NCBI GenBank assembly: GCA_039621445.1
Contig: CP154954.1
Coordinates: 26,548,954 to 26,612,953 of the forward strand
Source of the DNA: Euglena gracilis
Lineage: Eukaryota
DNA length: 64,000 nucleotides
Direction of reading: 5' to 3'
Position numbers and translations under genes: made by a program. Below, in pieces: positions 17,071 through 63,856 of this stretch (the stretch's first letter is position 1; every line of letters begins with the position of its first letter). A model generated the notes under the pieces. The model had not been told where the DNA came from, searched no databases, and saw only the letters and a list, made by a program, of their open reading frames with translations.

Positions 17071-18226
17071 CTTCTGTGATGAACTCTTTCCAGACATTGA
17101 TGTTCTGGCACCACCAGTGTGCGGCATCAGCCCATGCGTTCCAACGTGTTTCGCCCACTTTGGACGGGAACGTTTCCTGCATCCCTTTGGATGACAGGAG
17201 TTTTTTCCACCGACGCCTTCGGGCAGCATACTTTGGTGTGGCAACCAAATATGCCCCAGGAAACAACACATCACTCAGCACCTTGAAATCTTGGTGGTTT
17301 TGAAGCGCACGGCCAACGTGATTCAACTTGTGCGCCATGCACAGCAGAAGCGTGCTCTTTGGCCAAAGGATTGACAGAACGTTTTTGTACGCAGCCACCA
17401 TGACAGAACCTTCATCACAAATCACAAAATCAATCAAATTTGTGTCCATGCCCAATCTGCTCAATGTATTATTCAATTGGCTGCAAATCTCTTTGTGTTC
17501 AACACCAGAAGACTTCCCTTGTCCTTCAAGAAACAGAACATCAATTGCAACATGAACCGACGCCGATATTGCAATGACTGCCACAGTGGCACACCCCGCA
17601 TCATCTGTCCATTCATCAAACATCAGTGCAATCCTTGACCCGGTCAAAAGGTCTTTGATCTTCGCGATTACTTCAAAATACAAACGTAAAACATTTTGAC
17701 TGGGGAAATAGTCACTTAAACGAGGGATGCACCCATGTATGTGCGTTGTTTTCTTCAACCATCCTCGGAAGCTGGGGTGATCAATCTTCTCAACAGGTAT
17801 GCCGGTGCACAAACACATCAACACCAAATCGTCTTGACGGTTGCGGTTCACCTCAGCAGGCTTCTGTGTGAGCATCCAGGGTGGCTTGCCTGCCAGTCAA
17901 TGGCAGAGGTTGGAGGACCTTCTTGGGTCCGTCTTCTTTCTTCTTTCTTCTTCATCTTTCCAAGACCGTTCTACACCGTCTTTGTGGCACTGCTTTTGAA
18001 GGTGTTGGTCAATTGGCAATTTCGTCTGGTGGTTGACACCTTTGCCACACGCAATGCACCACAAAATGGAGTGACTTCCTTCCATTCGGACTTCAAATGG
18101 TTCCCTCGAATATTGTCCAAATTGCAACAGTGACCCTTTCAACAGTGACCCTTTTTGCATAATGAGAACCTCTTCTGCCAACTCCTTTCCCTCGCTTTCT
18201 CTTTGGTTGGCTCTGCTGGTCCTCAA
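17070..18226 (-). pseudogene. hAT-family transposase remnant (N-terminal C2H2/BED-like finger plus RNase H-fold core), frameshifted and 3'-truncated
   Basis: ORF 18226-17897 has WCIAC...HLQKQCH. ORF 17875-17027 has GIPVEKIDHPSFRGWL, IALMFDEWTD, CMAHKLN and ETRWNAW, which are hAT hallmarks (DxWT, CxxH, TRW). Confidence 0.85.
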
Positions 18227-27100: not shown

Positions 27101-27893
27101 TTCAGTACGGTGGATGTGTGTTTTCAGTCCAGTGGATGTGCATTTTTAGTCCGGTGGATATGTGTTCAGTCCGGTGATTGTTCGTTTTCAGTCCGGTGGA
27201 TGTGCCTCTTCAGTCCGGTGGATGTGTGTTTTCAGTCCGGTGGATGTACGCTTTCAGTCCGGTGGGCGCACGGTTTAAGTCCGGTGGATGTGGGTTTGCA
27301 GTGCAGTGGATGTGTGTTTTCAATCCGGTGGCTGTGTGTTTTCAATCCGGTGGATGTGCGTTTTTAGTCTGGTGGATATGCGTTATCAGTCCACTGGATG
27401 TGCGTTTTCAGTCCGATGGACGTGCACTTTCAGTCCGGTTCCTGTGTGATTCAGTCTTGTGGATGTGCATTTTCAGTCCAGTGGATGTGCATTTAATTCG
27501 GGAGGATGTGTGTTTTCAGTCCGGTAGATGTACACTTTGAGTCCGATGGATTTTCATTTTTAGTCCTGTGGAGGTTCATTTTCTGTCCGGTGGATGTTCA
27601 TTTTCAGCTTGGTGAACGTTCATTGCAATTCCACTGGATGTGAGTTTTAAGTCCGGTGGATGTTTGTTTTCAGTCCGGTTAATGCGCGCTTTCGGTGAAC
27701 GTGTGCCTTCAATCCGGTGGATGCGCGGTTTCAGTCCGGTGGATGTTCATTTTCAGTCCGGTGGATGTGCACTTTTTGTCCGGTGGATGTGCCCTTTCAG
27801 TCCGGTCAATGTGTGTGTTCAGTCTGGTGGATGTGTGTCTTCAGTCTGGTGGATGTGTGTTCAGTCCGGTGGGTGAACATCTTCAATCCGGTG
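21199..27893 (+). repeat. Segmental duplicate of about 5465-11880
   Basis: The same succession of satellite variants and identical ORF translations (e.g. 8091 vs 24144, 11163 vs 27178), with scattered substitutions and indels. Confidence 0.9.
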
Positions 27894-30800: not shown

Positions 30801-31392
30801 GTGGATGTGCATGAATCCCGTCAAGCCAGTCCGGTGGATGTGCGTTTTCAGTCCGCTGGGCATGTGCTTTCAATCTGGTGGATGTGCGTCTTCAGTCCGG
30901 TGGATGTGTGTTTCAGTCCACTGACTGTGCGTCTTCAGTCCGGTGACTGTACGTCTTCAGTCTGGTGGATGTAAATTTTCAGACTCGTGGATATGCGTTG
31001 TCAGTCCGGTGGATGTGTGTTTTTAGTTCATGGATGTGCGTTGTCAGTCCCTGGATAACCGGACTGAAAACGCACATCCACCGGACTGAATGCGCACGTC
31101 CACCAGACTGAAACCGCACGTACACCGTACTGAAAACACACATCCACTGGACTGAAGACAGACATCCACCGGACTGAAAATGCACATCCACCAGACATAA
31201 AACGCACATCCACCGGACCCAAAACGCACATCCACCGGACTAAACACACACATCCACTGGTCTGAAGACGCACGTCCACCGGACTGAAAACACACATGCA
31301 CCGGACTGATACACAACACCAGACTGAAGACGCACATCCACTGACCTGAAAACACACATCCACCGGACTGAAAACCCACATCTGAAGGACTG
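27894..31392 (+). repeat. Segmental duplicate of about 18238-21188 (hAT end plus satellite)
   Basis: Starts ACGGGGGTTGAATGTTGTGAAGC as at 18238; identical ORFs (19927 vs 30132). Confidence 0.9.
27953..28483. mobile_element. TA-duplicating MITE (Tc1/mariner-type), 531 bp
   Basis: TIR AACCCCCCCC..AAATATAAGAAACCC. The paralogous empty site at 18290-18300 (CAATA-TA-CATC) shows the TA duplication directly. Confidence 0.92.
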
Positions 31393-33425
31393 AAAGCGCA
31401 CATCCACCGGACTGAACACCTACCTCCACCGGACTGAAAACACAAGTACGAGCGAAGTGAAAACACACATCCACTGGCTTGAAAAATGTATATGCTTCAG
31501 CCTGGAAATGCAGGCTGAAAACGCACATCCACCAGACTGAAAGCACACATCCACCGGACTGAAAACGCATATCCAGACTGAAAAACACATCCACCGTACT
31601 GAAAAACCTCATCCACCGGACAGAAAAAGGCATTTGCACCGGACTGAAAACGCATATCCACAAGTCTGAAAACGCACATCCACCAGACTGAAAACGCACA
31701 GTCACCAGACTGAAAACACACATCCACCAAACTGAAAACACGCATACACCGGACTGATGATGCACATCCACCGGACTGAAAAACGCGAATCCACCGGACT
31801 GAAAACACACATCCACCGGACTGATGCACATCCACTGGACTGAAAATGAACATCCACCTGACTGAAAACACACACATCGACCGGACTGAAAGTGCACAAC
31901 CACCGACTTGAAAACACACACCTACCAGACTGAAAATGCACATCCAGCGGACTCATAACACACATCCACCGGACTGAACACGCACATCCACCAGACTAAA
32001 AACACACATCCACCGACCTGGAAACACACATCAACTCAACTGAAAAAGCACTTCCACCAGACTGAACACAGACGCACCGGACTGAAAACACACATCCACC
32101 GACCTGAAAACGCACATCCACCAGACTGATAACGCACATCCACCGGACTGAAAACACACATCCACCGGACTGAAAGCACACATGGATGCGCGTTTTCAGT
32201 CAGGTGGATGTGTGTTTTCAGCTCGGTGGATGTGCGTTTTCAGTCCGCTGAATGTGCATTTTCAGTCCGGTGGATGTGCGTCTTCTGTCCGGTGGATGTG
32301 CGTATTCAGTCCAATGGGGGCATATTTTCAGTCTGGTGGCAGTTTTGTTTCCAGTCCTAAGGATGTGTGTTTTCAGTAGCGGTGGTTGTGTGTTTTCAGT
32401 CCGGTGGAAGTGGTGGTTTCAGTCCGGTGCAGTGTATCTAATTTGGAGGATGTGTGTTTTCAGTCCGGTGGATATGCGTCTTCAGTCCGATGGACGTGTG
32501 ACTTCAGCCCGGTGGATGTGCTTTTTCAGTTGAGTGGATGTGCGCTTTTAGTCCATGTTTTCAGTCCGGTAGACGTGTGTTTTCAGTCTGGTGCGATGTG
32601 GGTTTTCAGTACGGTGGATGTGTCTCTTCTCTGCGGTGGATGTGTGTTTTCAGTCCGGTGGATGTGCGCACTCAGACTGGTGGATAAACGTTTTCAGTCC
32701 AATGGATGTGCGTTATCGCTTTGGTGGATGTGTGTTTTAAGTATGGTAAATGTGTGTTTTCAGTCCGGTGGTTGTGCGTTGTCAGTCCGGTGGATGTGTG
32801 TTTTCAGTCCGGTGGATGTTCTTTTTCAGTTGAGTGGATGTGTGTTTTCAGTCCGGTGGATGTGTGTTTTCAGTTGAGTGGATGTGTGTTTTCAGTCCGC
32901 TGGAATGTGCGTTTTCAGTCCGGTAGGTGTGTGTTTTCAAATCGGTGGCTATGCACTTTCAGTCTGGTGGATGTGTGTGGTTTCAGCCAGGTGGACGTTC
33001 ATTTTCAGTTCGGTGGACACGCATCAGTCCGGTGGATGTGTGTTTTCAGTCCGGTGGACATGTGCTTTCAATCTGGTGGATGTGCGTTTTCAGTACGGTG
33101 GATTTGTGTTTCCCTTTGGTGGATGTGCGTCATCAGTCCGCTAGATGCGCATTTTCAGTCCGGTGGATGTGCGTTATCAGTCTGGTGGATGTGCGTTTTC
33201 AGGTCGGTGGATATGTGTTTTCAGTCCGGTGGGTGTGTTCAATCCGGTGGATGTGCACTTTCAGTCTGGTGGATGTGCGTTATCAGGTCGGTGGATGTGT
33301 GTTTTCAATCCGGTGGATGTGCATTTTCAGTTTGGTGGACATGTGCTTTCAATCCGTGGATGTGCGTTTTCAGTCCGGTGGATGTGTATTTTCAGTCCGG
33401 TGGATGTGTGTTTCCAGACTGATGG

Positions 33426-34728: not shown

Positions 34729-35568
34729 TATGTGTTTTCAGTCCGGTGGGTGTTTTCAGTTAGGTGGATGTGTGTTTTTAGTCCAGTGGACATGTGATTT
34801 CAATCCGGTGGATATTCATTTTCAATCTGGTAGATGTGCATTGTGTTCAGGATGTGAGTTTTCAGTCCGGAGAATGTGTCTTTTCAGTCGGGTGGATGTG
34901 CGTTTTCAGTCTGGTGGATGTGTGTTTTCAGGTCGCTGAATGTGCATTTTCAGTCCAGTGGAGTGTATTTTTTAAACTTGGAGGATGCACGTTTTCAGTC
35001 CGGTAAACGTACGTTTTCAGTATGGTGAACGTGCGTCTTCAGTCCGATGGATGTACGCTTTCGGTCTGGTGGATGTGGGCTTTCAGTCCGGTAGATGTGC
35101 GCTTTCAGTCCGGTGGATGTGCGTTATCAGTCTGGTGGATGTTCGTTATCAGTCTGGTGGATGTGCATTTCCAGTCCAGTTGATGTGTGTTTCCAGTTTG
35201 GTGGATATGTGTATTTTTTTGGTCTGGTGGATGTGTGTTTACATTCTGGTAGGTGTGTGTTTTCAGTCCGGTGGATGTGTGTTTTGACTCCGGTGGATGT
35301 GTTTTTTGAATGTGCTAGATGTGCATTTTCAGTCCGATGGACGTGCGATTTCAGTCCGGTGGATGCAGTCCGGTGGATGTGTGTTTTCAGTCCGATTCAT
35401 GTGCGTTTTCAGTCCGGTGGACTCTGTCGTGTATTGTCCGGGGACGGGTGTTTTTGGTTTTCTCAGTCAGGTGGATGTGCGCTTTCAGTCCGGTGAGTGT
35501 GTGTTTTCAGGTCATTAAATGTGCGCTATCAGTTCGGTTTCAGGTAGGTGGACTGTGTTTTTCAGTCT

Positions 35569-35610
<42 letters not shown>

Positions 35611-35631
35611 GGGGGGGGGGGGGGGGGGGGT

Positions 35632-35662
<31 letters not shown>

Positions 35663-35682
35663 GGGGGGGGGGGGGGGGGGGG
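35569..35682. repeat. Poly-G tract of about 115 nt inside a satellite unit
   Basis: Read directly; it may be a sequencing or assembly artefact. Confidence 0.8.
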
Positions 35683-38600
35683 GTCCGGTGGATGTGCGTT
35701 TTCAGTCTGGTGGATGTGCGGTTTCAGGTCGGTGGATGTGTGTTTTCAGTCTGGTGGATGTGCAGTTTCAGGTCGGTGGATGTGCGTTCTCAGTCCGGTG
35801 GATGTGCGTTATCAGGTCGGTGGATGTGCTTTTTCAGTTGAGTGGATGTGTGTTTTCAGTCCGCTGGATGTGCATTTTCAGTACGGTGGACGTGCGTGTT
35901 CAGTCCGGTGGATGTGTGTTTCCAGTCAGCTAGATGTGCATTTTCAGTCCGGTGGGTACCCACCGGACTGAAAACACACATACATTGGCCATTGGCTGAT
36001 AACACACAACACAGGACTGAAGACGCACGTCCACCGGACTGAAAACACACATCCACCAGACTGAAAGTGCACAACCACCGACTTGCAAACACGCACCGGA
36101 CTGACAACGCACATCCATCGTACTGAAAAAAACGTCTCCACCGGACTGAAGCACACATCCACCGGACTGAAAATGAACATCCACCGGACTGAAATATACA
36201 TCCATCGGACTGAAAAAGCACATCCACTGGACTGAAAACGCAATCCACCGGACTGAAAACACACATCCACCGGAGAGAAGGCGCACATCCACCGTACTGA
36301 AAACGCACGTCCACCCGACAGAAACAGCACATCCACCTCACTGAAAACACACACCCAGCGAACTAAAAACACATATATCCACCGGACTGAAAATGCACAT
36401 CCACTCAACTGAAAAAGCACATCCAACGGTCTGAAAATGTACATCCACTGGACTGAAAGTGCACATCCACCAGACTGAAAACGCGCACCACCCAACTGAA
36501 AACCTCACATCTGGCCGACTGAAAACATACATCCACCAGACTGAAAGGGGAAAACAACCAAAAAGACTGGTTTTTGTGACAATTTGGTTGATTTTAGGTT
36601 CATCCTTGTGATCAAGGAAGGGAAATTTGAAACCATCATCAAGGCTGGGTTCATTTTCAGTCCAGTGGACGTGCATCAGTCCGTTGGATGTGGGTTTTAA
36701 GTCCGGTGGATCTGTGATTTAAATCTGGTGGACGTCCATTTTCAGTCCGGTGGATTTGTGTTTTCAGTCCGGTGGATGAGCGTCTTCAGTCCAGTGGATG
36801 TGTGTTTTCAGTCCGGTAGATGTGTGTTTTCAGTCCGTGCATTTCCAGGCTGGAGCATATGCATTTTTCTGGCCAGTGGATGCGTGTTTTCAGTCCAGTG
36901 GATGTGCGTCTTCAGTCCGGTGCATGTGTGTTTCCAGTCCGATAGATGTGTGTTTTCAGTCCGGCGGATGTGCGTTATCAGTCCGATGGATGTGTGTTCT
37001 CAGTCCGGTGGATATGTGTTTTCAGTCTGCAGGATGTCCGTTTTCAGTCCGGTGGATGTGCGTTTTCAGTCCGGTGGATGTGCGTTTTCAATCTGGTTGC
37101 TGTGTGTTTGCAGTCCGCGGAATGTGAGTATCAGTCTGGTGGATGTGTCTTTTCAGTCCAGTTGATGTAGGTTTTCAGTACAGTGCATGTGTGTTTTTCA
37201 GTCCGGTGGATATGTTTTTTCAGTCCGGTGGACATGCGTCTTCAGTCCGGTGGATGGGCATCTTCGGTCCGGTGGATGTGCATCTTCAGTCCGGTGGATG
37301 TGCGTCTTCATTCCAGCGGATGTGCGTTTTCAGTCTGCCGGATGTGAATTTTCAGTCCGGTGGATGTGTCTTTTCAGTCCGGTGGATGTGCATTTTAAGT
37401 CCGGTGGATGTGTGTTTTCTGGTGGATGTGCGTCTTCAGTCCGGTGGATGTGCGTCTTCAGTCCGGTGTTGTGTGTTATCAGTCCGGTGGTGCTTTTCAG
37501 TCCGGTGGATGCGCGGATTAAAGACCGGTGGATGTGTGTTTTCAGTCCGGTGGATGTGCATTTTCAGTCCGATGGATGTGCTTTTGCAAACCAGCGCAAT
37601 TCCGTGGATTTGCGCTTCCAGTCGGGTGGACGTGACTTTCCATGGATGTGGGCTTTCAGGCCGGTGGATGTGCGTCTCAAGGCTGGTGCGTGTACTTTTG
37701 CAAAATCGTTGCACTCTCGTGGATGTGTGTTATCAATCTGGTGGATGTGCGTTTCCAGGCTGGTGGATGTGTGCTTTCAGGCTGGTGGATGTGTTTTTTT
37801 CAGACCATTGGAGGTGTATTTTGGGGCTGGTGCAATCCCATGGCAGGTATGTGTGTTTTCAGTCTGGTGGACGTACATTTTCAGTCCAGTGGATGTGCAT
37901 TTTCAGTCCGGCGGCAATGCGCTTTCAGGCGGGTGGATTGGCATATTCAGGCAGGATCAAATAAGGAGGAAACAGCTAAAAAGAGATGGGGGGGGGCGGC
38001 GGACAAATTGCATGAAAAAGACATGCAAACAGCCCTCGATAGGCCCCCCAAATACCTCAAATTCAGCACCAAGCTTTAAGACCTGAAAGGGATCATCCCC
38101 AACACTCCTGCGGATGGGGGGGGGGGGGGGTGCTCGGAACCCATTTCAATGCAACCTGTGTTTTTTTTTGCATTCATGCAGATATAGAAGGATAGTATCC
38201 ACACTGGGGATCCTCCCATTTACTGAAAAGGAAAATTCACTGAAATTCACGAAGGATCACGTAATGCTTTTGCAAAGCCATTGTTGAATGCAGGGGCAGG
38301 GGGTGGCATTTGAATACCTGGAAACCATGGGGTCAGCCAGCAGCCTGTTTCCATCCAGGCTAATTTTTTTCAGCTCTGGCAACCCCCCTCCCAGGGGCCG
38401 CTAAGCGATGCCTGGGGCTGTGCATGATTCCCTTACTCGTCCCATATCACCTGAACCCAGGGGTGAACTAGACCCGGAATTATCAAACTGTAAAAACACC
38501 CACAGCATTGCCAAATTACAAACTATCAATTTTATGATTAAAATTTTGAGCTGGAGAGTCCAGTTAAAAATAAGTCATTTGAGGCGGCTCCGGGACTGAA

Positions 38601-51700: not shown

Positions 51701-54700
51701 TTAGAGAAGTATGAGGCATTTTGGGATCCACTCCCAAACCTCTTGGGGCTGGCAAAGCACCTATGCCCACTGATATTTGTACATTGCGTACACAACTCAT
51801 TTTTGTTCACGGATCTTATGTTTGTACAGATCCTCAGACATGGCACAATTCAAACGCACCACAAGTGTTTTGGGAAGGGCACCCTACATCAAAATTAAGT
51901 GTAAAGGGCAAAAAGTTCACAAGTGGGAGAGAGTTGTTTCCATTCCCCATTGTCCACAAATAAGTCCTTCTCATTTTGATGATGTCCTATGTGGCTGCCA
52001 CACGTTTATTCGTGATACCTGGGAACCCCTTCTAATTTCATTAAAACCCCGATATAAAGCCATAAGTGCAGACACGGTTGCTTCAATCACAAAGCAATTT
52101 CAGGCCAAGCAAGGGGGACCCCAGGTGTGGGGGCACTCCACCAGAGGAGCTTGGGTTGGTTTACTCATAAAACCGGGCCTTTCTGCCCACGAAGTTACTG
52201 TGACAACCTCAACATTGCTTCTGGTGCAGTCCCACAGAAAGGTTGTCCAAAATGTGCTTGAGATTTCTAATAAACTATCACTTTCCCCGTTATCGCAAAA
52301 ATATTCATCATTTGGAAGCTGAGGTTTGCGGCAAACCCAGCTTGTTGAGGATTTGGAACACGCAGTGAAGACTTGTCCGCGAGTTTGGGCCGTTTGTCCG
52401 TTCAAGGTAAGATTCACAACTTGGAAATTTTGAGTGAATAAGGCTGCCATCAGGGGTTTTTTTGAGAACCCCAGGGGCCTACAGGCCGGCTGGAAAGGGG
52501 TGCTGACTGCAAAAAAAAAGTGCTGGCTGGACCCCTGGGGGGTCCAGGAGAGGGTCCAGGGGGAGGTCGTCGCCGGACAGCGGGGAGCTGCTGGCTGCTG
52601 GAAAAAGAGGTGTATGGGAAGGGTACCCTGTACGGGAAGGCCTGGTGGGGAGGGGTCGACCCCCCACCCAGATCGCTTGGCTGCAGTCATTTTTCTTCAC
52701 CAAGGGCTTGTACGTCGTCATTGGTTGCCCTGCCCTGGGTTCACCTGTGGTTCGTGCTTGGGGAGCCCGAACCCTCATTCGCGCCTTTTCGCGACTTTTT
52801 CGGGAAATTTCGCGTTTTTTGGGGGTGTTTAGTATCATTTTCAGGTAGACTTTTTGGTCCTTGGAATGACCAGGTTTTGTGCTGAGGTCTTTACGTGTGT
52901 CATGGTGTCATGCTGCAGCAAAAGTTTGAGGCGGTTGGCGGACCGGCGGCGTGGCCCAGCCCAGCCCGGCCCGGCATGGCCCGGCTAGCGGTGTTATTTA
53001 CTTGTGCTCTGAAGGGGGGGGGACCCGGTTTGGGCCCTTGTGCATTTTTCTGACTTCTTTCACTGGGGATGGTGGACGGGGGGCGCATTATTTGGCCAAC
53101 CAGTCTCTCACCATTCCACCCCGGCACTGCGCGAGGGTGAGCGACTGCAGGGCGGGCAGGGCGGGGACCACATGCGCCAACGCGGCGTCACCGATGCCGT
53201 TGCCCCCACGGGGCGGCTCAGTGACGGTTGTCCACCGGGGGAAACAAACGTGCCTCGCGAACAATGCTCGCCCTCCTTCAGCCTTCTTTGGGCTGGGGCA
53301 GGCTTCCCCCCAACGTTCCGTCCATGGGTTTTTTTTACCTCCCCCCTCCGTCCAACGACCGCTAAATATCGCTACTGACCGGGGGGTGGTCGCTGTTCTG
53401 GCCAAACATCGCGGATTGGTCGTTAGACAAGACCACGGTCAAGAACGCGAATGTCTGGAAAAAAGGGTCACCTGGAAAAAGATCTCTTACTGACCAGGGG
53501 GTGGTCGTTGGGCAAGGGGGGGGGGAGGTAAGGCCGGGGGTCCCCCCCCACTCACCCATCATCGGGGGTCCCAGGGGAACCCACTCACTTTTCCCCAATG
53601 GCCAAAGAATCGCGAAAAATGCTAAAAATCGCACCTTTTCAATAAATTTCAGCCCCTTTGGTGCCGAAAAGTAAATCCCCCCCCCCCCCCTGGGGGGACC
53701 CCACCGGACCCACCCACCCTACCCCCCCCCCGGGGGTCCAAGACTAAAAAAAAACCCCGGTTCTGTCCCACCCGCCAGGCCAGCCGGCCCCTGCCTGGAC
53801 GCGAGGTCCAGGCGCAGGGAGGCCAGGGCCGGGAGGTACTCCAGGGCGCCGAGGGCGGGCAGGGCGGTGCCGGTGAGCTGGTTGCTGCCGAGGCTCAGCG
53901 AGAGGGCCCGCAGGCCCCGGCAGCGCGCCAGGGGGGCCAGGCCGAGCAGCCCGGCGGGGCCCAGCTGGTTGTCGTGGGGGGCAGGGCCGCGCCGTGGCGG
54001 GGCCCGCCCAGCGGGGACCAACACCGGTTGCGGCGGAGGCCGCAAACGCTGCGGCATGTCAGTTGAATACCTGTCAGGGGGGTACAGCGAAAGAAAGTGG
54101 AGGGCGGCAAAAAAGGCCAGTGGGTTGAAATCAGAGCTGTGCGGGGAGGGGCTTTATTTGACGGGGGACACAAATGTATGAATGACCCATTGAGTCCCTC
54201 CCCCTCTTCGTCTGGAAGCTTTGAGGGGACGACTCCGTTTGCAGTACTGCAACTCCTGGCATGCCACTTGTACACATCCACATCCACACGCATCCATCCA
54301 TCCATCCATCCGTCCGTCCGTCCGTCCATCCGTCCGTCCGTCCGTCTGTCCATCCGTCCGTCCATCCGTCCGTCCGCCCGTCCATCCATCCACCAACCCA
54401 CCCACCCACCCACACCCACCCACCCACCCATGGATACAGACAGACAGACAGACAGACAGGCAGGCAGGCAGACAGGCAGACAGGCAGACAGGCAGGCAGG
54501 CAGGCAGGCAGAGAAGACAGACAGACAGACAGACATGCATACATATTCACATGTGTATGCACATGTTGTTTACATTTCGGACCTTTCCAGCCAACAGCGA
54601 TCCCGCCCCCAACGCCGGGCCAGCAGCGGCCCTGGCCCACGTCCAGTTCCAGGTCCTGCAGCGCCGGGCCCCAGCCCTCCGCCACCAGCCGCAGGCCCTC

Positions 54701-57678
54701 CGGCCCCAGGTGGCCCGCCCTCAGGTACAGGCGCAGGCTGGCCCCGGCCCCCGAGATGTGAGATGGGGGGGGGGGCAAACCCACCGCCATCAAACGGCTG
54801 GCGGGCACGGGTGGGGGGGGGGGGGGGCAGCGCGGTGCGGCAGCGGAGGAACGAGACGCCGGGCTTCTTTTTGAGCACTCCCAGCGGGTGGTCGACCCAC
54901 GCCAACTCACAGGTTGGCCAGAAACGAAGGCCTGAAAACTTCCCATCCTGAAGATATGAACCGCCCTGAGTTTGTCCGTTTTCCGGGGGGACAGGAAGGC
55001 CTGAAAGGGGGAGGGGGTCTGCCCCCAGGAGGTGAAGGAGCCCCCACTAACCAGTTGGCACTACAACCACCCCAACCAATTTGCAAGACAAAGTTCATTC
55101 GGCACCGCAGGTATTTTGGTGTGGGGGGGAGGGGTTGTCTGCCCTGAAGGGGATGGATGGGGGGAGGGAAGGGGGGACCCCCTCCCACCCATTGGGATTC
55201 AGGATCCAGGATTCCCATTCAGCCCTGGGGGCAGGGAATTTCTTAAGGACCCCCCCGGGGGGGGGGGGACCAGCCCCCGGCTGGCAAAAAGGCTGCTGGC
55301 TGGATTTGAGCTGCTGGCTGGACCCCCCCCCCCCCCCCGGGGGGGTGGGGGGGGTCCGGGGCTGGAGCGGGCTGGGCTGGGCTGGGTCGAGGAAAAACAA
55401 ACACATTTTTCTAACACATTTTGGCCATTTTCGACATTTTGATGGGTGGAGGTAGATCAAGGCTGGGGGGCTGTGATGGAGGGGCTGTGATGAGGGGGAA
55501 AAATGCAGGGATAAGTGAGCTGGACAGCCCAGTTGGCTGGCCGGCCTGCGGCCGGCTGGGCCGGCCTCTGGCCGGGCTGGACCCGACTTTATTTCACTCG
55601 ACCCCCGGGGGGGGGGGCTCCCAGCCCGAATTTGGGCTGCTGGCTGGATTTGAGCTGCTGGCTGGCTGGACCCCCCCCCCGGGGGGTAGGGTACCCTCCG
55701 GCTTAAGAAATTCCCTGCCTGGGGGGCGGGGGGCTGTGGGAGGTGGGGGGGGGGCGGTCACATGGAAAAGTTAATGCCATACAGCAGCATGGTGTGTGAG
55801 GTGTGGCTCTTGTGTCCCAAAGCAGACAGGTAGCATGTCAGCCGCCGCTCTTCTGGAAGGTCACCGCGGGGGCCGACCGGAGAGGGCGGGGCCGGCGCCA
55901 AGCGCAGCCAGCGCGGTCGCCCCGCGGCGCCCCATGTAGCTGTCCTGGGTGTCGACCGGCCCCACGCCCCGGGGAAAACCCGCAACCACCCACCAATTAG
56001 AGGGGTAAAACCCTCTAATTGAAGCGCAGGGCTGTGACAAGCGCAGGGTCCAAATAAAAGCGCACCCTCCCCCGCCGCCAAAGGCGGCGGTCCGCTACAA
56101 GCGCACCCCCATTTTTCGATGGGATATCTAAAGGAAATCAAAAAAAAATCGCGCAGGTGGGGTCCAAATAGAAGCGCACCCGCCGCCAGAGGCAGCGTTC
56201 CGCTATAAGTGCACCCGTGCTTCTATTACGGGGGGTTAGTGGCTGGCTCCCTACGGATGGGTGGCAGACGGGTGTGGGCAGCAGTGTTCTCTGGAGGGAT
56301 GTGTTCTGGGGGGTGGGGGGAGGGAAGGCATGCTGCCCACCCGCCAGCCTTTCCAGGAAACTCATTCAGCCCTTGATGGGAGGAGTAGGTTTGCTGCACT
56401 TGTTCGGCCCCGGGGTCAAGGTTCCAAGCCAAAGTTGGTGGCTGGGGGGGGGGGGTAAGTGCCCGACTTGATCAGGGTGGAACTGGGGGAGGACACGGGG
56501 GGAAAGCTGCTTTCGCAGAATGGTCCAGAGCCAACCAGTCAAATGGGAGGTGGCAGCCACTGGTTTCTTGTACCAGATCAACAAAGCAAAGAAAATGAGT
56601 GAATGAAATGAGTGAATAATATGAGTGAACAATCATACATCAATCGAGGAAACCAATCGGCAGCACGCCACCCCACGGAGAGCGGGGGGCGGCGAGGGTC
56701 AGGCGCGCCAGCTGGGCGATGGGGCGGAGGGGGGCCATCGCAAAGGCGTCGGTGCAGCAGCAGTTCTCGAGGGACAGGCGGAGGGCCTCGCAGCCGGCGA
56801 GGGAGGCCAGGGCTGCCAGGGCGGCCACGCCGTCGTCCTTCAGGCGCGCGCAGTGGAGCGCCAGGGTTGGGAGGAGGGCCGGGGCCCCGAGGGGACGGGA
56901 GGGCTCGGGGTGAGGGTAGGGGGTCCGACCTCCCCGTCAAGGGTGTCAAGGGGGGGGACACCCCAGCCAAGGTGGAACAGTGCTTGCTGGGTTTGTGGCG
57001 CAATTCTCTATTTGATGGCAGAAATTGGGGACTCTGTTTAACAATTATGCAAAAGAACCGTGCAGGTGAGACAACAATTGAAAAAAAAACCGACAGTCAC
57101 CAAAGCCCTCGCCTTGATTGTTTTGTCCCCCTCAATCGCCGACGCGAGGGGACTGCTGGACACTTTGGTGGGGTCCAGGCGGCGCTTGCATTTGGGACCA
57201 ACGTTCGCCTGATAGGAAGCAACTGCCAAGATGGAGAGGGCAACGCCGGGCCATGGGCCCTGCGTTGGCCCTGGCAACGTGGATGGTGGACTGGACCAGG
57301 TAAGGGGCGACCTCCCCGCCAGAGATTTTTCTGAGTTTGGTGACCCGGGGGAGGGGTCCGAATGGTCCCCCCAGGGGACGGTAACTGCCAAAATGACCCC
57401 CCCCCAAGGGTGGGTTCCCCGAGGCCCCCCCCCTGACCCCCCCCCCCGGGAGATGGGACGAACCGCTGTGGGTCGCCCAAAAGAAAAGGCCCTCTTCTCC
57501 CACCCCCAGCCCGGGCCAGCAGCCCCGGCAGCAGTGCCGCGGTGGCCGGGGTGACCCGGTACGCCGCGTGCCGCCGGCCCACGCTGCCGCGCACGGCGCG
57601 GCACACCTGCCCGAGGGGGCCGGGGCCCACAAAGTCGCTGACCAGGCACCAGAGGTCCCCCGGCAGGGCGGCCGCCAT
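40927..57678 (-). CDS. F-box-like + leucine-rich-repeat (RNI-like) protein, at least 427 aa, 12 exons, mostly non-canonical structured introns
   Basis: Exons: 57678-57514, 56897-56694, 55953-55879, 54739-54638, 53976-53797, 53201-53133, 44667-44566, 44040-44013, 43609-43585, 42727-42617, 41990-41874, 41029-40927. Joins are in frame and rebuild LRR units across junctions (LELDV|HDNQLG, LDLAS|NGIGD, SLTL|NLWGNDVG, LDLGH|NRMEG, LALYL|GYNFV). The N-terminus LPGDLWCLVSDFV...LGQVCR is F-box-like. The intron 1 acceptor and the 3' end (a further intron at 40926, or read-through to TGA near 40873) are uncertain. Confidence 0.85.
42789..43245. mobile_element. Probable hAT-type MITE in intron 9; related copies at about 4970-5080 and 58220-58710
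   Basis: TIR CAGGGGGG..TATGCAA / TTGCATATCCCCCCCTG with a degenerate flanking duplication; shared CACTTTTCCACTGGAGAGGACT-like core. Confidence 0.55.
50517..50872. mobile_element. TA-flanked MITE; a related degenerate copy lies at about 40298-40627
   Basis: TA|CCTCCCCCCCCCTTGTC ... GACAAGGGGGGGGGGGAGG|TA; the internal sequence is similar to 40320-40627. Confidence 0.8.
50942..51341. mobile_element. TA-flanked MITE with AATAAGACCC repeats
   Basis: TA|AACCCCCCAAAATAAGACC ... GGTCTTATTTGGGGGGGGGGGC|TA. Confidence 0.6.
51600..52200 (+). pseudogene. Degenerate tyrosine recombinase of DIRS type
   Basis: Two overlapping frames give KYEAFWDPL, LYRSSDMA (Arg box), IKCKGQK, ISADTVASITK and WGHSTRGA (HxxR box). 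The C-terminal catalytic Tyr region is not seen. Confidence 0.7.
53338..53528. mobile_element. TA-flanked MITE, 191 bp, in intron 5
   Basis: TA|CCTCCCCCCTCCGTCCAACGACC ... GGTCGTTGGGCAAGGGGGGGGGGAGG|TA; short version of the 5716/21449 family. Confidence 0.8.
54290..54535. repeat. Compound microsatellite (CATC)n/(CGTC)n/(CACC)n/(CAGA)n/(CAGG)n in intron 4
   Basis: Read directly from the sequence. Confidence 0.95.
55232..55717. mobile_element. hAT-type MITE, 486 bp, in intron 3
   Basis: TIR CAGGGAATTTCTTAAG / CTTAAGAAATTCCCTG with perfect 8-bp TSD CCTGGGGG. Confidence 0.92.
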
Positions 57679-57720: not shown

Positions 57721-59147
57721 GGGGGGGGGGGGCAGGGCAGAACGGGAAGGTCTGGTGGGGGGGGGGGGGGGGGGGGCCCCTCCCCATCCACCACAGCATT
57801 TTTTCACAGATTTCCATCCGGCGCCGAAGGAGCCGGGCAAAAATTTTGGGGTAGACAATTGGTGCTCCTGGAAATAGGGGAGGAGGTAGTGGGGGGGGGG
57901 GGGGTCGACCCCCCAGAATTAGCAGGATGAGTCCGAATCCTGGCACCTGGCGCCGGAAGAAGCGTTCGCTTTCTTGAAAATTAAGGGAAAGAATTCAGAA
58001 GATCCGCCATCGTCGAGGGGAAGTCACAAAAAAACATGCAGTAAAGGACTTAGTAAAAATATTTTTAGGGCCAAATCTTCGCTGGAAAAAAACCTGGACG
58101 ACGAACGGCACCCCCCCCCCCGGACTCCTTTTGAATACCTGCTGAATGGTAATGTGAGGTCACAATTCAAGGTGCCCCTTCTACCCCCCACACATTCTTT
58201 GGGAACACTTTGGGAATATGGGGGGAATATGCAACAAGGCTTCCTCAAAATATGCAATGCAAAAAAAATGCAAAAAAAAAGTGCAAAGAAATGCAAAAAA
58301 AATGCAGTATGTGTATAAATTCCTTTAGGAGCTCTCCGGGGATGTACACTTTTCCACTGGAGAGGACTTAGAAGAATTCCAATTGCTCCAAAAATACAAC
58401 ATTAAAGGAAAATGTGATGCAAACTTGTGAAATGATATGGTTGATTCACCCAGTTGCATCCACTTGTGTTTCATCATGCAGCCACTGCTTAAGTGAAATT
58501 GGTCCAAAAACAGAAAATAAGCAACCTCCAGTCGTCTGCTAGTGGAGCAAATTGTTTGTGTAAATATAAACAATGAACAACATTAGAAAAGGAAAATATG
58601 CAAAAAAATGCAAATATGCGACTTTCACAAAATTTTCATTAAGCAAAAAAAATATCCAAAAGTGTCCAAATTTTCAAGATTTTTGATTATGCGAAAAATT
58701 GCAAATCATCCAGGTTGCATAATCTGTCGGGAATCCAACAAAAAAAAAATCTTGTTATGCAGTGTTTTTTGAAGGCCCACAGAAGACACATTCGAAGAGG
58801 AGTTGTGAATCCAGAGCAACAAACATGTGCGGTGAAAGATGCACAGGCAAGTCGAAACAGCGGATCGGAGCAGCAGTTGTTTGAGTCTCATGCTGATACC
58901 TCCTGGGATGGAAAAGGATGACCTTTGAGACGGCCCTAAAGGAGAACACATCTGGGTAATAGAGCAGCTTTTAATAAAGCAGTAATAGAGCAGACGTTTG
59001 GAAACTTCAGGGGTCCGCCCCACCCAGGTCGCGTGGGACCACAGCAGGGGGGAGGGGTCGCAAGGGGAAATAAAAGTGGACGGTATATGCACACAGAAAG
59101 ACAGACAGACAGACATATATATACCTATTATTTTTATTTATATTTGT

Positions 59148-60190
<1,043 letters not shown>

Positions 60191-63100
60191 TTTGGATAAC
60201 AACCATACCCGGTGGCCTCCCCGCACCACCGGGATGGTGCCGGTCCGTCCGGAGCCCCCCTGTCCTGTTTAATAGTAACCGGACGGCAGGGTCGGGGGGC
60301 GCATAACCGGCTGGTGGGTGCCTCCTTCACCACTGCCTCAGGGACGGCAAATCCCTGGGCACACCAAAGGTTCAGCCCAGTGGCCCCGTGTCTTTGGGTC
60401 ACTCCGCCTGGCACTGAAACAGGTTCAGCAGGTTTTCAGGGTGCCTCCCGTCGCGGGCCCTTACTCACCACAAGGCCAGGCAGAGCCCCACACCGCCAGG
60501 TCACAGCATCCCCTTGGCATGCTAACAGCGGTTACTCTAGTCCCAGGCACCCGAGACCTGAAACAGCACAGGGGAGGAGCCTCCCTTCCTTTGCCCTGTC
60601 CATTCCAGGTCCCCTTCCACGCTGAGAGGGACGACGACTCATGTCCCACGAACAGCGCGGGCTTCTACGCGCGAGAGGGCCTGCTCTCCCCGTGGACTCA
60701 CGCGCAGGGGCCCGTGCAGCAAGGCGTCTACACATGCCAGGGGCTGCACGGGGAGGAAACGGAGGGGCCTGCTCAAGCCGTAGGTCCGTTCCTCGAAGTA
60801 TACACCATAAGGTGGCCACACAGACAAGGGGCCGGGCCTTAGGCAATGTATTTGGATAACAACCATACCCGGTGGCCTCCCCGCACCACCGGGATGGTGC
60901 CGGTCCGTCCGGAGCCCCCCTGTCCTGTTTAATAGTAACCGGACGGCAGGGTCGGGGGGCGCATAACCGGCTGGTGGGTGCCTCCTTCACCACTGACTCA
61001 GGGACGGCAAATCCCTGGGCACACCAAAGGTTCAGCCCAGTGGCCCCGTGTCTTTGGGTCACTCCGCCTGGCACTGAAACAGGTTCAGCAGGTTTTCAGG
61101 GTGCCTCCCGTCGCGGGCCCTTACTCACCACAAGGCCAGGCAGAGCCCCACACCGCCAGGTCACAGCATCCCCTTGGCATGCTAACAGCGGTTACTCTAG
61201 TCCCAGGCACCCGAGACCTGAAACAGCACAGGGGAGGAGCCTCCCTTCCTTTGCCCTGTCCATTCCAGGTCCCCTTCCACGCTGAGAGGGACGACGACTC
61301 ATGTCCCACGAACAGCGCGGGCTTCTACGCGCGAGAGGGCCTGCTCTCCCCGTGGACTCACGCGCAGGGGCCCGTGCAGCAAGGCGTCTACACATGCCAG
61401 GGGCTGCACGGGGAGGAAACGGAGGGGCCTGCTCAAGCCGTAGGTCCGTTCCTCGAAGTATACACCATAAGGTGGCCACACAGACAAGGGGCCGGGCCTT
61501 AGGCAATGTATTTGGATAACAACCATACCCGGTGGCCTCCCCGCACCACCGGGATGGTGCCGGTCCGTCCGGAGCCCCCCTGTCCTGTTTAATAGTAACC
61601 GGACGGCAGGGTCGGGGGGCGCATAACCGGCTGGTGGGTGCCTCCTTCACCACTGACTCAGGGACGGCAAATCCCTGGGCACACCAAAGGTTCAGCCCAG
61701 TGGCCCCGTGTCTTTGGGTCACTCCGCCTGGCACTGAAACAGGTTCAGCAGGTTTTCAGGGTGCCTCCCGTCGCGGGCCCTTACTCACCACAAGGCCAGG
61801 CAGAGCCCCACACCGCCAGGTCACAGCATCCCCTTGGCATGCTAACAGCGGTTACTCTAGTCCCAGGCACCCGAGACCTGAAACAGCACAGGGGAGGAGC
61901 CTCCCTTCCTTTGCCCTGTCCATTCCAGGTCCCCTTCCACGCTGAGAGGGACGACGACTCATGTCCCACGAACAGCGCGGGCTTCTACGCGCGAGAGGGC
62001 CTGCTCTCCCCGTGGACTCACGCGCAGGGGCCCGTGCAGCAAGGCGTCTACACATGCCAGGGGCTGCACGGGGAGGAAACGGAGGGGCCTGCTCAAGCCG
62101 TAGGTCCGTTCCTCGAAGTATACACCATAAGGTGGCCACACAGACAAGGGGCCGGGCCTTAGGCAATGTATTTGGATAACAACCATACCCGGTGGCCTCC
62201 CCGCACCACCGGGATGGTGCCGGTCCGTCCGGAGCCCCCCTGTCCTGTTTAATAGTAACCGGACGGCAGGGTCGGGGGGCGCATAACCGGCTGGTGGGTG
62301 CCTCCTTCACCACTGACTCAGGGACGGCAAATCCCTGGGCACACCAAAGGTTCAGCCCAGTGGCCCCGTGTCTTTGGGTCACTCCGCCTGGCACTGAAAC
62401 AGGTTCAGCAGGTTTTCAGGGTGCCTCCCGTCGCGGGCCCTTACTCACCACAAGGCCAGGCAGAGCCCCACACCGCCAGGTCACAGCATCCCCTTGGCAT
62501 GCTAACAGCGGTTACTCTAGTCCCAGGCACCCGAGACCTGAAACAGCACAGGGGAGGAGCCTCCCTTCCTTTGCCCTGTCCATTCCAGGTCCCCTTCCAC
62601 GCTGAGAGGGACGACGACTCATGTCCCACGAACAGCGCGGGCTTCTACGCGCGAGAGGGCCTGCTCTCCCCGTGGACTCACGCGCAGGGGCCCGTGCAGC
62701 AAGGCGTCTACACATGCCAGGGGCTGCACGGGGAGGAAACGGAGGGGCCTGCTCAAGCCGTAGGTCCGTTCCTCGAAGTATACACCATAAGGTGGCCACA
62801 CAGACAAGGGGCCGGGCCTTAGGCAATGTATTTGGATAACAACCATACCCGGTGGCCTCCCCGCACCACCGGGATGGTGCCGGTCCGTCCGGAGCCCCCC
62901 TGTCCTGTTTAATAGTAACCGGACGGCAGGGTCGGGGGGCGCATAACCGGCTGGTGGGTGCCTCCTTCACCACTGACTCAGGGACGGCAAATCCCTGGGC
63001 ACACCAAAGGTTCAGCCCAGTGGCCCCGTGTCTTTGGGTCACTCCGCCTGGCACTGAAACAGGTTCAGCAGGTTTTCAGGGTGCCTCCCGTCGCGGGCCC

Positions 63101-63738
63101 TTACTCACCACAAGGCCAGGCAGAGCCCCACACCGCCAGGTCACAGCATCCCCTTGGCATGCTAACAGCGGTTACTCTAGTCCCAGGCACCCGAGACCTG
63201 AAACAGCACAGGGGAGGAGCCTCCCTTCCTTTGCCCTGTCCATTCCAGGTCCCCTTCCACGCTGAGAGGGACGACGACTCATGTCCCACGAACAGCGCGG
63301 GCTTCTACGCGCGAGAGGGCCTGCTCTCCCCGTGGACTCACGCGCAGGGGCCCGTGCAGCAAGGCGTCTACACATGCCAGGGGCTGCACGGGGAGGAAAC
63401 GGAGGGGCCTGCTCAAGCCGTAGGTCCGTTCCTCGAAGTATACACCATAAGGTGGCCACACAGACAAGGGGCCGGGCCTTAGGCAATGTATTTGGATAAC
63501 AACCATACCCGGTGGCCTCCCCGCACCACCGGGATGGTGCCGGTCCGTCCGGAGCCCCCCTGTCCTGTTTAATAGTAACCGGACGGCAGGGTCGGGGGGC
63601 GCATAACCGGCTGGTGGGTGCCTCCTTCACCACTGACTCAGGGACGGCAAATCCCTGGGCACACCAAAGGTTCAGCCCAGTGGCCCCGTGTCTTTGGGTC
63701 ACTCCGCCTGGCACTGAAACAGGTTCAGCAGGTTTTCA
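60191..63738 (+). repeat. Head-to-tail array of a 660-bp non-coding, highly structured unit (5 full copies + 248 bp); candidate rolling-circle insertion
   Basis: Units start at 60191, 60851, 61511, 62171, 62831 and 63491. The only difference I saw is C vs A at 60336. Flanked on both sides by (TATG)n. The strand is assigned from the G.U bias of the helices. Confidence 0.95.
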
Positions 63739-63856
63739 TATGTATGTATGTATGTATGTGTGTATGTATGTATGTATGTATGTATGTATGTATGTATGTA
63801 TGTATGTATGTATGTATGTATGTATGTATGTATGTATGTATGTATGTATGTATATG
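63739..63856. repeat. (TATG)n microsatellite, right flank of the 660-bp array
   Basis: Read directly from the sequence. Confidence 0.95.

What the first reader, a model, noticed from the sequence alone, without database searches (positions are those of the whole stretch)
60825..60870. The unit carries a 1.5-repeat template-like motif (AUGUAU) for the flanking microsatellite
Seen: each unit junction reads GCCTTAGGC-A-ATGTAT-TTGGATAAC. ATGTAT (60846-60851) is 1.5 copies of the 4-mer. At the left edge the minus strand runs ...CCAA-ATACAT straight on into about 42 ACAT units. A tiny GCC/GGC hairpin lies immediately 5' of the motif, and a hairpin plus a pseudoknot follow 3' of it. Known: telomerase RNAs have the order boundary helix, 1.5-repeat template, pseudoknot, and some retroelement RTs reiterate short templates. 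Inference: either the motif is only a priming or annealing microhomology to a pre-existing microsatellite, or the RNA templates reiterative synthesis of (TACA)n, making it a microsatellite-writing element. A 6-nt match alone is weak evidence.
Basis: inference. Interest (0 to 1): 0.75.

Follow-up and report, generated by a model that had tools for sequence, protein, structure and literature searches.

The report
Microsatellite-docking end of tandem retroelement
The six-letter motif is real, but it most likely serves as the docking site that lets an abundant non-coding jumping element of a Euglena-type genome start copying itself inside an existing ATGT repeat tract, not as a telomerase-like template that writes that tract.

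Summary
A 660-bp unit stands in five full copies plus one 245-bp partial copy (60192-63738). Every junction reads GCCTTAGGC-A-ATGTAT-TTGGATAAC, and the left edge runs into (GTAT)42.

The telomerase-like reading is not supported:
- The same microsatellite also lies on the far side of the array (63739-63853).
- The motif is read through at 5 of 5 internal junctions without one extra repeat.
- The "boundary helix" is worth -1.3 kcal/mol and is lost in the family's majority variant.
- The "pseudoknot" is two competing helices, and the fold is no better than shuffles.

On the minus strand the layout is that of a target-primed retroelement. It has a 5'-truncated first copy, a fixed 3' end, and a 12-13-bp stem-loop 16 nt before ...CCAAATACAT. 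ATGTAT is the only 6-mer in the unit that can pair with the tract.

Contigs of one DNA run show a very abundant family. Its motif does not vary, and five contigs run from the same end into (ATGT)n.

Best reading: a non-autonomous, tandem, microsatellite-targeting retroelement whose motif anneals to the nicked tract. A rolling-circle DNA transposon and limited tail slippage remain possible. It is a new family of a known kind.

The parts
60192..63738 (-). Head-to-tail array of a 660-bp non-coding unit: five full copies plus a 245-bp partial copy at 63494-63738. On the minus strand the partial copy is a 5'-truncated first copy.
   Evidence: BLAST of the unit against the window and unit-by-unit comparison: units 2-5 each differ from unit 1 at one position. 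No Pfam family on its ORFs. No protein homologue. No Rfam family at E<=10. No tRNA.
60846..60851 (-). ATGTAT (ATACAT on the minus strand), 1.5 copies of the flanking repeat. Proposed annealing site for the nicked (ATGT)n target strand. It recurs at 61506, 62166, 62826 and 63486, and as the last 6 nt of the left tract (60186-60191).
   Evidence: Only occurrence per unit of any 6-mer matching the tract. No variant or indel at 10% share or more at 60845-60854 in family contigs, while 60844, 60855, 60856 and 60857 vary.
60862..60898 (-). Stem-loop of 12-13 bp with one bulged A and a 10-nt loop. On the minus strand 10 nt (GTTATCCAAA) lie between its base and the ATACAT motif, so it ends 16 nt before the unit's last base. 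Candidate recognition hairpin next to the priming site.
   Evidence: Present in the MFE and centroid folds of both strands. -22.4 kcal/mol on plus, -25.4 on minus. The two common family variants in it (60892 G>A, 60898 T>C) keep G-U pairs only on the minus strand. This is weak evidence: 2 of 2 here, and the variant at 60844 points the other way.
60836..60844 (+). Not a meaningful helix.
   Evidence: -1.3 kcal/mol; +0.1 with the T that carries 87% of the X7 word depth at 60844.
60905..60960 (.). More likely alternative or nested folds.
   Evidence: -13.4 and -14.9 kcal/mol singly. Nested MFE of -31.0 needs no knot. Region folds are not better than shuffles. Family variants fall in the loop at 60934-60937.
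60024..60191 (.). (GTAT)42, a pure tract abutting the fixed end of the array. It is the last member of a compound tract, (TGTC)n-(GCGT)n-MITE-(GTGC)n-(GT)n-(GCAT)n-(GCGT)n-(GCAT)n-(GTAT)n, that starts at 59149.
63739..63852 (.). (TATG)5 GT (TGTA)23, the same microsatellite on the far side of the array. It joins the truncated unit with no more than 1 nt of shared sequence.
59352..59771 (.). 420-bp MITE with perfect 17-bp terminal inverted repeats. The same 8 bp (GTGCGTGC) lies on both sides, inside the (GCGT)n part of the same compound tract. It shows the tract receives insertions of unrelated element types.
   Evidence: Read. The 8-bp duplication habit of such MITEs in this genome comes from an earlier unchecked note (e1-7363118).

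Best explanation
The 660-bp unit is a non-coding, non-autonomous retroelement of a Euglena-type genome that lives as head-to-tail multimers and inserts into (ATGT)n microsatellites.

The RNA has minus-strand sense. A nick in the tract leaves a DNA end ...ATGTAT-3'. That end pairs with the one complementary site in the unit, AUACAU, which lies 10 nt 3' of a 12-13-bp stem-loop. A reverse transcriptase supplied in trans extends from there. The genome is said to hold Penelope-like and R2-like elements.

Synthesis runs through several units of a multimeric or circular template. This keeps each junction at exactly 1.5 repeats. It then stops early, leaving a 5'-truncated last-made unit that is joined to the other side of the tract without homology.

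The motif is therefore a docking or priming microhomology, comparable to the terminal repeats of site-specific LINEs and of telomere-attaching Penelope-like elements. It is not a reiterated template.

Shown: anatomy, tract on both sides, uniqueness and conservation of the motif, abundance of the family, recurrence of the same end next to (ATGT)n.

Inferred: the RNA intermediate, its strand, the multimeric template and the enzyme.
For: 1. Polarity. One end is fixed and the other truncated. The array starts exactly at ATGTAT|TTGG and ends inside a unit at unit position 245. In DNA run X7, five contigs run from (ATGT)n into the same position, 60846. The loose ends shown on the other side lie at differing positions, 60529 and 60822. 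Only 8 of 39 loose ends were shown.

2. The summed X7 word depth falls from about 109k to 69k to 55k over the three thirds of the unit, counted from the minus-sense 3' end (my averages, table 2). The tool itself warns that this depth is a poor measure.

3. The tract flanks both sides. It belongs to a roughly 1-kb compound tetranucleotide tract that also holds a TIR MITE with an 8-bp flank identity.

4. ATGTAT is the only tract-matching 6-mer in the unit.

5. The motif and junction length are invariant at the 10% level, while the neighbouring positions 60844, 60855 and 60856 vary in 87%, 20% and 59% of X7 depth. Junction-spanning contigs exist in many variants: 13 contigs with T at 60844 and 12 with G at 60856. 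Tandem order is therefore a family property.

6. Junction-spanning contigs occur in a library on record as RNA (X20, record 3, 60677-60929). The unit is also well covered in five runs guessed to be RNA from four studies. DNA carry-over is not excluded.

7. Precedent in print, from passages I read:
- Penelope-like elements form partial tandems with a 5'-truncated upstream copy and are biased to microsatellites. EN-minus forms carry reverse-complement telomeric repeats at their 3' ends (PMC8557442).
- ACAY microsatellites are targets of Waldo LINEs (PMC3812793).
- A stem-loop plus terminal repeat is required in UnaL2 (PMC1636434).
Against: - No RNA strand information: all runs were contigs.
- No autonomous partner, and no reverse transcriptase in the window. 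0 of 32 ORFs outside the unit, each of 150 aa or more, matched an RT family.
- No empty site, and no second locus read in full.
- No hammerhead or other known ribozyme that would make unit-length or circular RNA.
- Target-site duplication cannot be read inside a microsatellite.
- An earlier unchecked note says the same genome holds very abundant tandem rolling-circle (Helentron-type) elements. Tandem order alone therefore does not point to RNA.
- The wobble-pair argument for the minus strand is 2 of 2 in the big stem-loop, but the variant at 60844 favours the plus strand.
- One X7 contig shows (ATGT)n joined at about 60750-60765 instead of 60846. This does not fit a single fixed end.
Confidence: 0.55

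Rival explanations
1. The same retroelement, but its terminal 1.5 repeat also serves as a slippage template. At initiation the reverse transcriptase copies AUACAU repeatedly, as proposed for the UGUAA tail of eel UnaL2. Part of the 42-unit left tract would then have been written by the element.
For: The tract next to the priming end is longer and purer, (GTAT)42 with no interruption, than the far tract, 5 + 23 units with one GT interruption. Template slippage 'reminiscent of telomerase' on a 3'-terminal repeat next to a stem-loop is in print for UnaL2 (PMC1636434, passages read). The title of Tu et al. 2004 on 'slippage retrotransposition' was seen only in a reference list. The paper itself is not held.
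Against: No slippage at 5 of 5 internal passes, and no junction-length variant at 10% share or more family-wide. The far-side tract cannot come from 3' slippage. Long pure tetranucleotide tracts occur in this window without the element: (GTGC)30 and (TGTC)24. The difference in purity between the two tracts is a single interruption.
Confidence: 0.15
2. The unit is a non-autonomous rolling-circle DNA transposon (Helitron/Helentron-like). Its tandem copies come from repeated passes around a circular or tandem donor. ATGTAT would be a captured piece of an earlier flank.
For: An earlier unchecked note reports a very abundant tandem Helentron-type family in this genome (e1-7360126). There is a hairpin close to one terminus and a run of three T at the boundary. 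Helitron-like and MITE elements that sit in microsatellites are known (PMC3812793). Read on the plus strand, the array has a fixed start and a truncated end.
Against: No 12-15-bp subterminal inverted repeats. The best terminal pair is 9 nt at 89%, among 23 such pairs in the unit, judged against the criteria in PMC4067079. The (ATGT)n tract offers no TT target. No 5'-TC or 3'-CTRR ends and no A|T insertion site on either strand. This model leaves unexplained why the terminal 6-mer equals the target repeat in phase.
Confidence: 0.15
3. An ordinary 660-bp satellite amplified at the DNA level by unequal exchange or by re-integration of extrachromosomal circles. The microsatellites would serve only as recombination or microhomology substrates.
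For: Near-identical units. Very high copy number with many variants. A 658-nt contig in run X1 closes on itself.
Against: Exchange between flanking tracts should leave variable and mostly longer repeat runs at junctions, not a constant 1.5. Random breakage of circles should not give the same end next to (ATGT)n in five different contigs. The truncated terminal unit needs an extra deletion.
Confidence: 0.1
4. A plus-strand RNA acts like a telomerase RNA, with boundary helix, 1.5-repeat template and pseudoknot, and directs reiterative synthesis of (ACAT)n onto a DNA end.
For: The order of elements on the plus strand resembles the telomerase RNA core. The motif is conserved. Penelope-like reverse transcriptases, reported in this genome by earlier notes, are the sister group of TERT (PMC8557442).
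Against: The helix is worth -1.3 kcal/mol and is lost in the majority variant. There is no fold signal and the knot is sterically doubtful. The motif is read through in every junction. The tract lies on both sides. The truncation polarity fits the opposite strand.
Confidence: 0.03

Closest known systems
Penelope-like elements and their non-autonomous tandem derivatives (animal non-LTR retrozymes)
   Same: Head-to-tail partial tandems with a 5'-truncated upstream copy. Insertion bias for microsatellites. Naiad and Chlamys lack canonical hammerheads. EN-minus forms use short 3' repeats complementary to the target (telomere) to attach (PMC8557442, passages read). Retrozymes as tandem non-autonomous derivatives of these elements: bioRxiv 10.64898/2026.07.22.740005, abstract read.
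   Different: No hammerhead or any Rfam ribozyme here. No 30-40-bp tail extension seen. The target is (ATGT)n rather than the (CA)n, (C)n or (TA)n reported. No partner element was identified. The 660-nt unit is longer than the retrozyme monomers I recall; that size range comes from memory, not from a call.
Stringent-type LINE/SINE 3' tails, e.g. eel UnaL2 and UnaSINE
   Same: A stem-loop followed by a short terminal tandem repeat at which reverse transcription starts (PMC1636434). 5' truncation.
   Different: UnaL2 shows slippage at its repeat. Here the internal junctions show none. These elements are dispersed single copies, not multimers. A shared tail with a LINE could not be tested.
Microsatellite-specific LINEs (Waldo on ACAY, Mino on AC, Kibi on TC, Koshi on TTC, Dong on TAA)
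   Same: Insertion inside a pre-existing microsatellite, with the repeat on both sides. ACAY includes ACAT (PMC3812793).
   Different: Those are autonomous APE-type LINEs of animals. This unit is a non-coding tandem element of a euglenid.
Telomerase RNA
   Same: A short RNA stretch complementary to 1.5 repeats that aligns a DNA 3' end.
   Different: No functional boundary element, no supported pseudoknot, no reiteration, and read-through into the rest of the RNA. Not a member.
HINE / DINE-1-like non-autonomous Helentrons
   Same: Non-coding, very abundant, tandem end-to-end copies, a hairpin near one end, association with microsatellites (PMC4067079).
   Different: No subterminal inverted repeats and no TT target.

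Membership tests
Telomerase-RNA-like template RNA | Template complementary to about 1.5 repeats | tested here: met
   ATGTAT at 60846-60851 is 1.5 x ATGT, once per unit.
Telomerase-RNA-like template RNA | Stable, conserved template boundary helix 5' of the template | tested here: not met
   3 bp, -1.3 kcal/mol. The majority family variant (60844 T) gives +0.1.
Telomerase-RNA-like template RNA | Pseudoknot 3' of the template | tested here: inconclusive
   Two helices that cross only with 1-nt linkers. A nested fold is at least as good. z = -0.8 and -0.2. No covariation data.
Telomerase-RNA-like template RNA | Reiterative copying that stops at the boundary, with repeats only on the extended end | tested here: not met
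   The motif is read through at 5 of 5 junctions with a fixed 1.5 repeats. The tract lies on both sides of the array.
Target-primed non-LTR-type retroelement (LINE-dependent or PLE-dependent, non-autonomous) | Fixed 3' end and variable 5' truncation | tested here: met
   A 245-bp 5'-truncated copy in the window. Five contigs share the same end next to (ATGT)n, and the loose ends shown on the other side are at differing positions. Only 8 of 39 loose ends were shown.
Target-primed non-LTR-type retroelement (LINE-dependent or PLE-dependent, non-autonomous) | 3' terminus able to pair with the nicked target | tested here: met
   ATACAT is in phase with the tract and is the only such 6-mer in the unit.
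Target-primed non-LTR-type retroelement (LINE-dependent or PLE-dependent, non-autonomous) | RNA intermediate of the inferred strand | not testable with these tools
   Only contigs were available. Junction-spanning contigs exist in one RNA library (X20), but neither strand nor DNA carry-over can be judged.
Target-primed non-LTR-type retroelement (LINE-dependent or PLE-dependent, non-autonomous) | Autonomous partner sharing the 3' region | not testable with these tools
   No genome held. No RT family matched in 32 window ORFs outside the unit. No outside copies.
Penelope-like element / retrozyme | Partial tandem with truncated upstream copy, and microsatellite bias | tested here: met
   judged against the description in PMC8557442.
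Penelope-like element / retrozyme | Hammerhead ribozyme in the repeat (canonical PLEs and retrozymes) | tested here: not met
   No Rfam hit in two units on either strand at E<=10, and none at gathering score in the window. Naiad and Chlamys also lack it.
Helentron / HINE | 12-15-bp subterminal inverted repeats and a TT target | tested here: not met
   Best terminal inverted pair is 9 nt at 89%. The (ATGT)n tract has no TT. Criteria from PMC4067079.
Canonical Helitron | 5'-TC, 3'-CTRR, insertion between A and T, hairpin about 11 bp from the 3' end | tested here: not met
   The ends read TTGG.../...TGTAT on plus and TGCC.../...ACAT on minus. Only the hairpin spacing resembles the rule: 10 nt from the base of the stem to ATACAT on the minus strand. 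Criteria.

The most novel reading that the evidence does not exclude
The family is a ribozyme-less counterpart of retrozymes. A multimeric or circular minus-strand RNA would be copied by a telomerase-related (Penelope-like) reverse transcriptase that is aligned on a microsatellite end by a 1.5-repeat motif. Occasional slippage on that motif would seed or lengthen (ACAT)n tracts across the Euglena genome. One variant 3' end, seen in 4 contigs, carries three CCTA repeats in place of the ATGT tract. One other contig joins the unit to a CCTA-like tract. These hint that the terminal repeat and the target co-vary between subfamilies, which would make target choice RNA-programmed.
Probability: 0.15. 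Interest if true: 0.6.

Novelty: new member of a known kind. Interest (0 to 1): 0.3.

Why it matters
If the reading is right, this is a clean natural example of RNA-guided target choice by microhomology. A 6-nt motif, unique in the element, would fix where copying starts inside a microsatellite. The host is a protist whose genome is crowded with tetranucleotide tracts and telomerase-related retroelements.

It helps explain why microsatellites in such genomes are interrupted by the same repeat again and again. It also offers a simple system for testing how Penelope-like or other reverse transcriptases pick DNA ends: change the 6-mer and see whether the target changes.

It does not reveal a new way of making microsatellites.

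Tried and rejected
- Whole-genome search: no genome is held for this window.
- Outside copies. Exact-pattern scans of metagenome contigs and genome contigs gave 0 + 8 and 9 + 0 loci. BLAST showed all 17 to be chance matches of 20-31 nt.
- Sampling family copies through predicted proteins. Two searches with minus-strand ORFs that span the junction found nothing.
- Earlier notes of this scan, searched by place, by sequence and by relatives, held nothing on this unit.
- Rfam at gathering score over the window and at E<=10 over 59000-61600 gave only microRNA-like noise on the microsatellites. ARAGORN found no tRNA.
- Pfam matched no family on the 4 unit ORFs. Among the other 32 ORFs the only hit was a weak DUF659 match at 17027-17896.
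- Literature. No paper held describes this repeat or Penelope-like elements in Euglena. Searches gave listings only. This is not proof that nothing is in print.
- Coverage gaps and depth in the contig runs are not used as evidence of absence. X1's single self-closing 658-nt contig shows tandem or circular order only, not RNA.
Full report
**What is there**

The region 60192-63738 is a head-to-tail array of a 660-bp unit: five full copies and a 245-bp partial copy at the right end. Units 2-5 each differ from the first at one position, unit position 143. The 15-mer ATGTATTTGGATAAC occurs six times, at the left edge and at five junctions.

The left edge continues leftward into a pure (GTAT)42 at 60024-60191. 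That tract is the last member of a compound tetranucleotide tract starting at 59149: (TGTC)n, (GCGT)n, (GTGC)n, (GT)n, (GCAT)n, (GCGT)n, (GCAT)n, (GTAT)n.

**What the unit is not**

- It has no Rfam family on either strand, neither at gathering score over the window nor at E<=10 over two units. Only microRNA-like noise on the microsatellites appeared.
- ARAGORN finds no tRNA.
- Its stop-to-stop ORFs of 115-187 aa match no Pfam family. Two protein searches found no homologue.
- It is non-coding and carries no known ribozyme.

**Where the window comes from**

No genome is held for the window. Earlier unchecked notes of this scan place it in a Euglena-type genome. They report Penelope-like elements, R2-like LINEs, a repeat with a variant hammerhead, hAT-like MITEs with 8-bp duplications, and a very abundant tandem Helentron-type transposon. 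None of those notes touches this unit.

**The family**

The sequencing-run index lists 20 runs from 13 studies that hold the unit or part of it. I laid one permuted unit (60500-61159) on four runs, all kept as contigs.

- *Abundance.* In DNA run X7, 507 contigs were laid, with summed word depths of 10^4 to 10^5. The family is very abundant and diverse.
- *Conservation of the motif.* No substitution or indel reaching a 10% share is listed at 60845-60854. The neighbours vary: 60844 C>T in 87% of the depth (13 contigs), 60855 G>A in 20%, 60856 A>G in 59% (12 contigs). The motif and the exact junction length are therefore conserved. The tandem junction exists in many sequence variants, so it is a property of the family and not of this locus.
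- *The fixed end.* Five X7 contigs run from (ATGT)n into position 60846, the same end as in the window.
- *A variant end.* Four contigs carry a different end before 60860, with three CCTA repeats followed by a diverged terminal 14 nt that keeps TGTAT. One contig joins the unit at 60529 to a CCTA-like tract.
- *A misfit.* One contig has (ATGT)n joined near 60750-60765, which does not fit a single fixed end.
- *Limits.* Only 8 of 39 loose ends were shown, so none of this can be counted further.
- *Other runs.* A 658-nt contig in X1 (kind unknown) is identical to the window's unit and closes on itself. A contig in X20, a library on record as RNA, spans the junction (60677-60929). DNA carry-over cannot be excluded for either.

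**Testing the telomerase-like reading**

1. *Boundary helix.* GCC/GGC is 3 bp and -1.3 kcal/mol. With the majority T at 60844 it is +0.1.
2. *Pseudoknot.* The helices 60905-12/60939-46 (-13.4) and 60914-20/60954-60 (-14.9) cross. They could coexist only with single-nucleotide linkers, which by the usual loop-length rules for H-type pseudoknots (recalled, not from a call) is sterically doubtful. A nested fold of -31.0 kcal/mol needs no knot. The folds of the 165-181-nt region are no better than dinucleotide shuffles: z = -0.8 on plus, -0.2 on minus.
3. *Reiteration.* The motif is passed five times inside the array without one added repeat, and no junction-length variant reaches 10% in the family.
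4. *Polarity of the tract.* A 3'-terminal or telomerase-like template can write repeats on one side only, yet the tract is on both sides.
5. *Pre-existence of such tracts.* The window holds long pure tetranucleotide tracts without this element: (GTGC)30 and (TGTC)24. A 420-bp MITE with perfect 17-bp inverted ends (59352-59771) sits in the (GCGT)n part of the same compound tract, with the same 8 bp on both sides. A DNA transposon cannot have written its flanks, so the tract is a pre-existing landing ground for unrelated elements.

**What fits instead**

Read on the minus strand, the array has the anatomy of target-primed reverse transcription:
- a 5'-truncated first copy;
- full copies behind it;
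- a fixed 3' end ...GTTATCCAA-ATACAT running into (ACAT)n;
- a 12-13-bp stem-loop (60862-60898, -25.4 kcal/mol on this strand) whose base lies 10 nt before the motif, so the stem-loop ends 16 nt before the unit's last base.

ATGTAT/ATACAT is the only 6-mer in the whole unit, in any phase and on either strand, that matches the tract. The fixed boundary lies exactly there. This is what one expects if the 3'-OH of a nicked (ATGT)n strand anneals to the RNA at its one complementary site and is extended.

The other junction shares at most 1 nt with the tract, as at the 5' joins of such elements.

The constant 1.5 repeats at junctions argue that the junction is inherited from a continuous multimeric or circular template, not re-made by annealing at each unit.

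Two weaker hints point the same way. X7 depth declines from the minus-sense 3' third to the 5' third, about 109k, 69k and 55k (my averages, a poor measure by the tool's own warning). The two common variants in the big stem keep G-U pairs only on the minus strand. Against the second hint, the 60844 variant favours the plus strand.

**Comparison with what is known**

[quoted passage not shown] In the Naiad and Chlamys clades they lack hammerheads. Their EN-minus relatives attach to telomeres through short reverse-complement telomeric repeats at the 3' end (PMC8557442, passages read).
- Animal tandem retrozymes are argued to be non-autonomous derivatives of Penelope-like elements (bioRxiv 10.64898/2026.07.22.740005, abstract read).
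- Eel UnaL2 needs a stem-loop plus a terminal UGUAA repeat. [quoted passage not shown]
- ACAY microsatellites are the specific targets of Waldo LINEs (PMC3812793, passages read).

The telomerase analogy is apt for how the motif aligns a DNA end, but the unit fails the membership tests for a telomerase-like RNA.

**Rivals**

A rolling-circle DNA transposon must be kept, because tandem Helentron-type arrays are reported in this genome. But the unit has no 12-15-bp subterminal inverted repeats; the best pair is 9 nt at 89% among 23 pairs. It has no TT target and no Helitron ends. That model also does not explain why the terminal 6-mer equals the target repeat.

Slippage writing of part of the left tract cannot be excluded without an empty site. 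The only point in its favour is that the left tract is longer and has no interruption.

DNA-level satellite amplification does not explain the constant junction or the shared fixed end.

**Verdict**

The motif is real, unique in the unit and conserved in the family. Its most likely role is a docking microhomology for insertion of a tandem, non-autonomous retroelement into pre-existing (ATGT)n tracts (confidence about 0.55). The telomerase-like microsatellite-writing reading is improbable (about 0.03 as stated, about 0.15 for the milder slippage version).

What stays open: the strand and form of the RNA, the enzyme, and any empty site. No second locus could be read in full, because collection scans found only chance matches. 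The single read-laying run showed only 8 of 39 loose ends.

Noticed in passing
window 59352-59771: A 420-bp MITE with perfect 17-bp terminal inverted repeats (CAGGCATTTGCTTAAGG...). It has a G/C-homopolymer palindromic interior and the same 8 bp (GTGCGTGC) on both sides, and it lies inside a (GCGT)n tract. A look-alike with related CTTAAG-containing ends lies at about 55227-55725.
   Followed up: partly
window 7458-13839, 18766-21177, 23511-27893, 28970-33417, 34734-37585: Very large arrays of a degenerate 22-bp satellite (consensus TTCAGTCCGGTGGATGTGCGTT, 62-77% matches) on both strands, including head-to-head switches of orientation. Blocks 5487-7053 and 21223-22647 and their surroundings look like a large segmental duplication.
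   Followed up: no
window 59089-59180 and 54291-54535: Compound tetranucleotide tracts that change strand in the middle, for example (AGAC)n facing (TGTC)n across an A+T-rich spacer. They give long imperfect hairpins that Rfam scores as microRNA-like noise.
   Followed up: no
window 35569-35683: A run of 115 G (94% matches) between two satellite blocks.
   Followed up: no
window 17027-17896 (-): An ORF with a weak DUF659 match (E 9e-5, below the Pfam cut-off). I recall DUF659 as associated with hAT transposases, so this may be a decayed hAT transposase.
   Followed up: no
window 53790-53990, 54580-54760, 56680-56870 (-): G+C-rich exon-like blocks that, read by eye, may encode leucine-rich-repeat-like peptides. 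They are separated by repeat-filled introns, and the compound microsatellite at 54291-54535 lies in one of them. No family search was run on these.
   Followed up: no
contigs of run X7 laid at window 60860 and 60529: A subfamily of the unit whose terminal 14 nt differ and are preceded by three CCTA repeats. Separately, a copy is joined to a CCTA-like tract. Together they may show co-variation of terminal repeat and target.
   Followed up: partly
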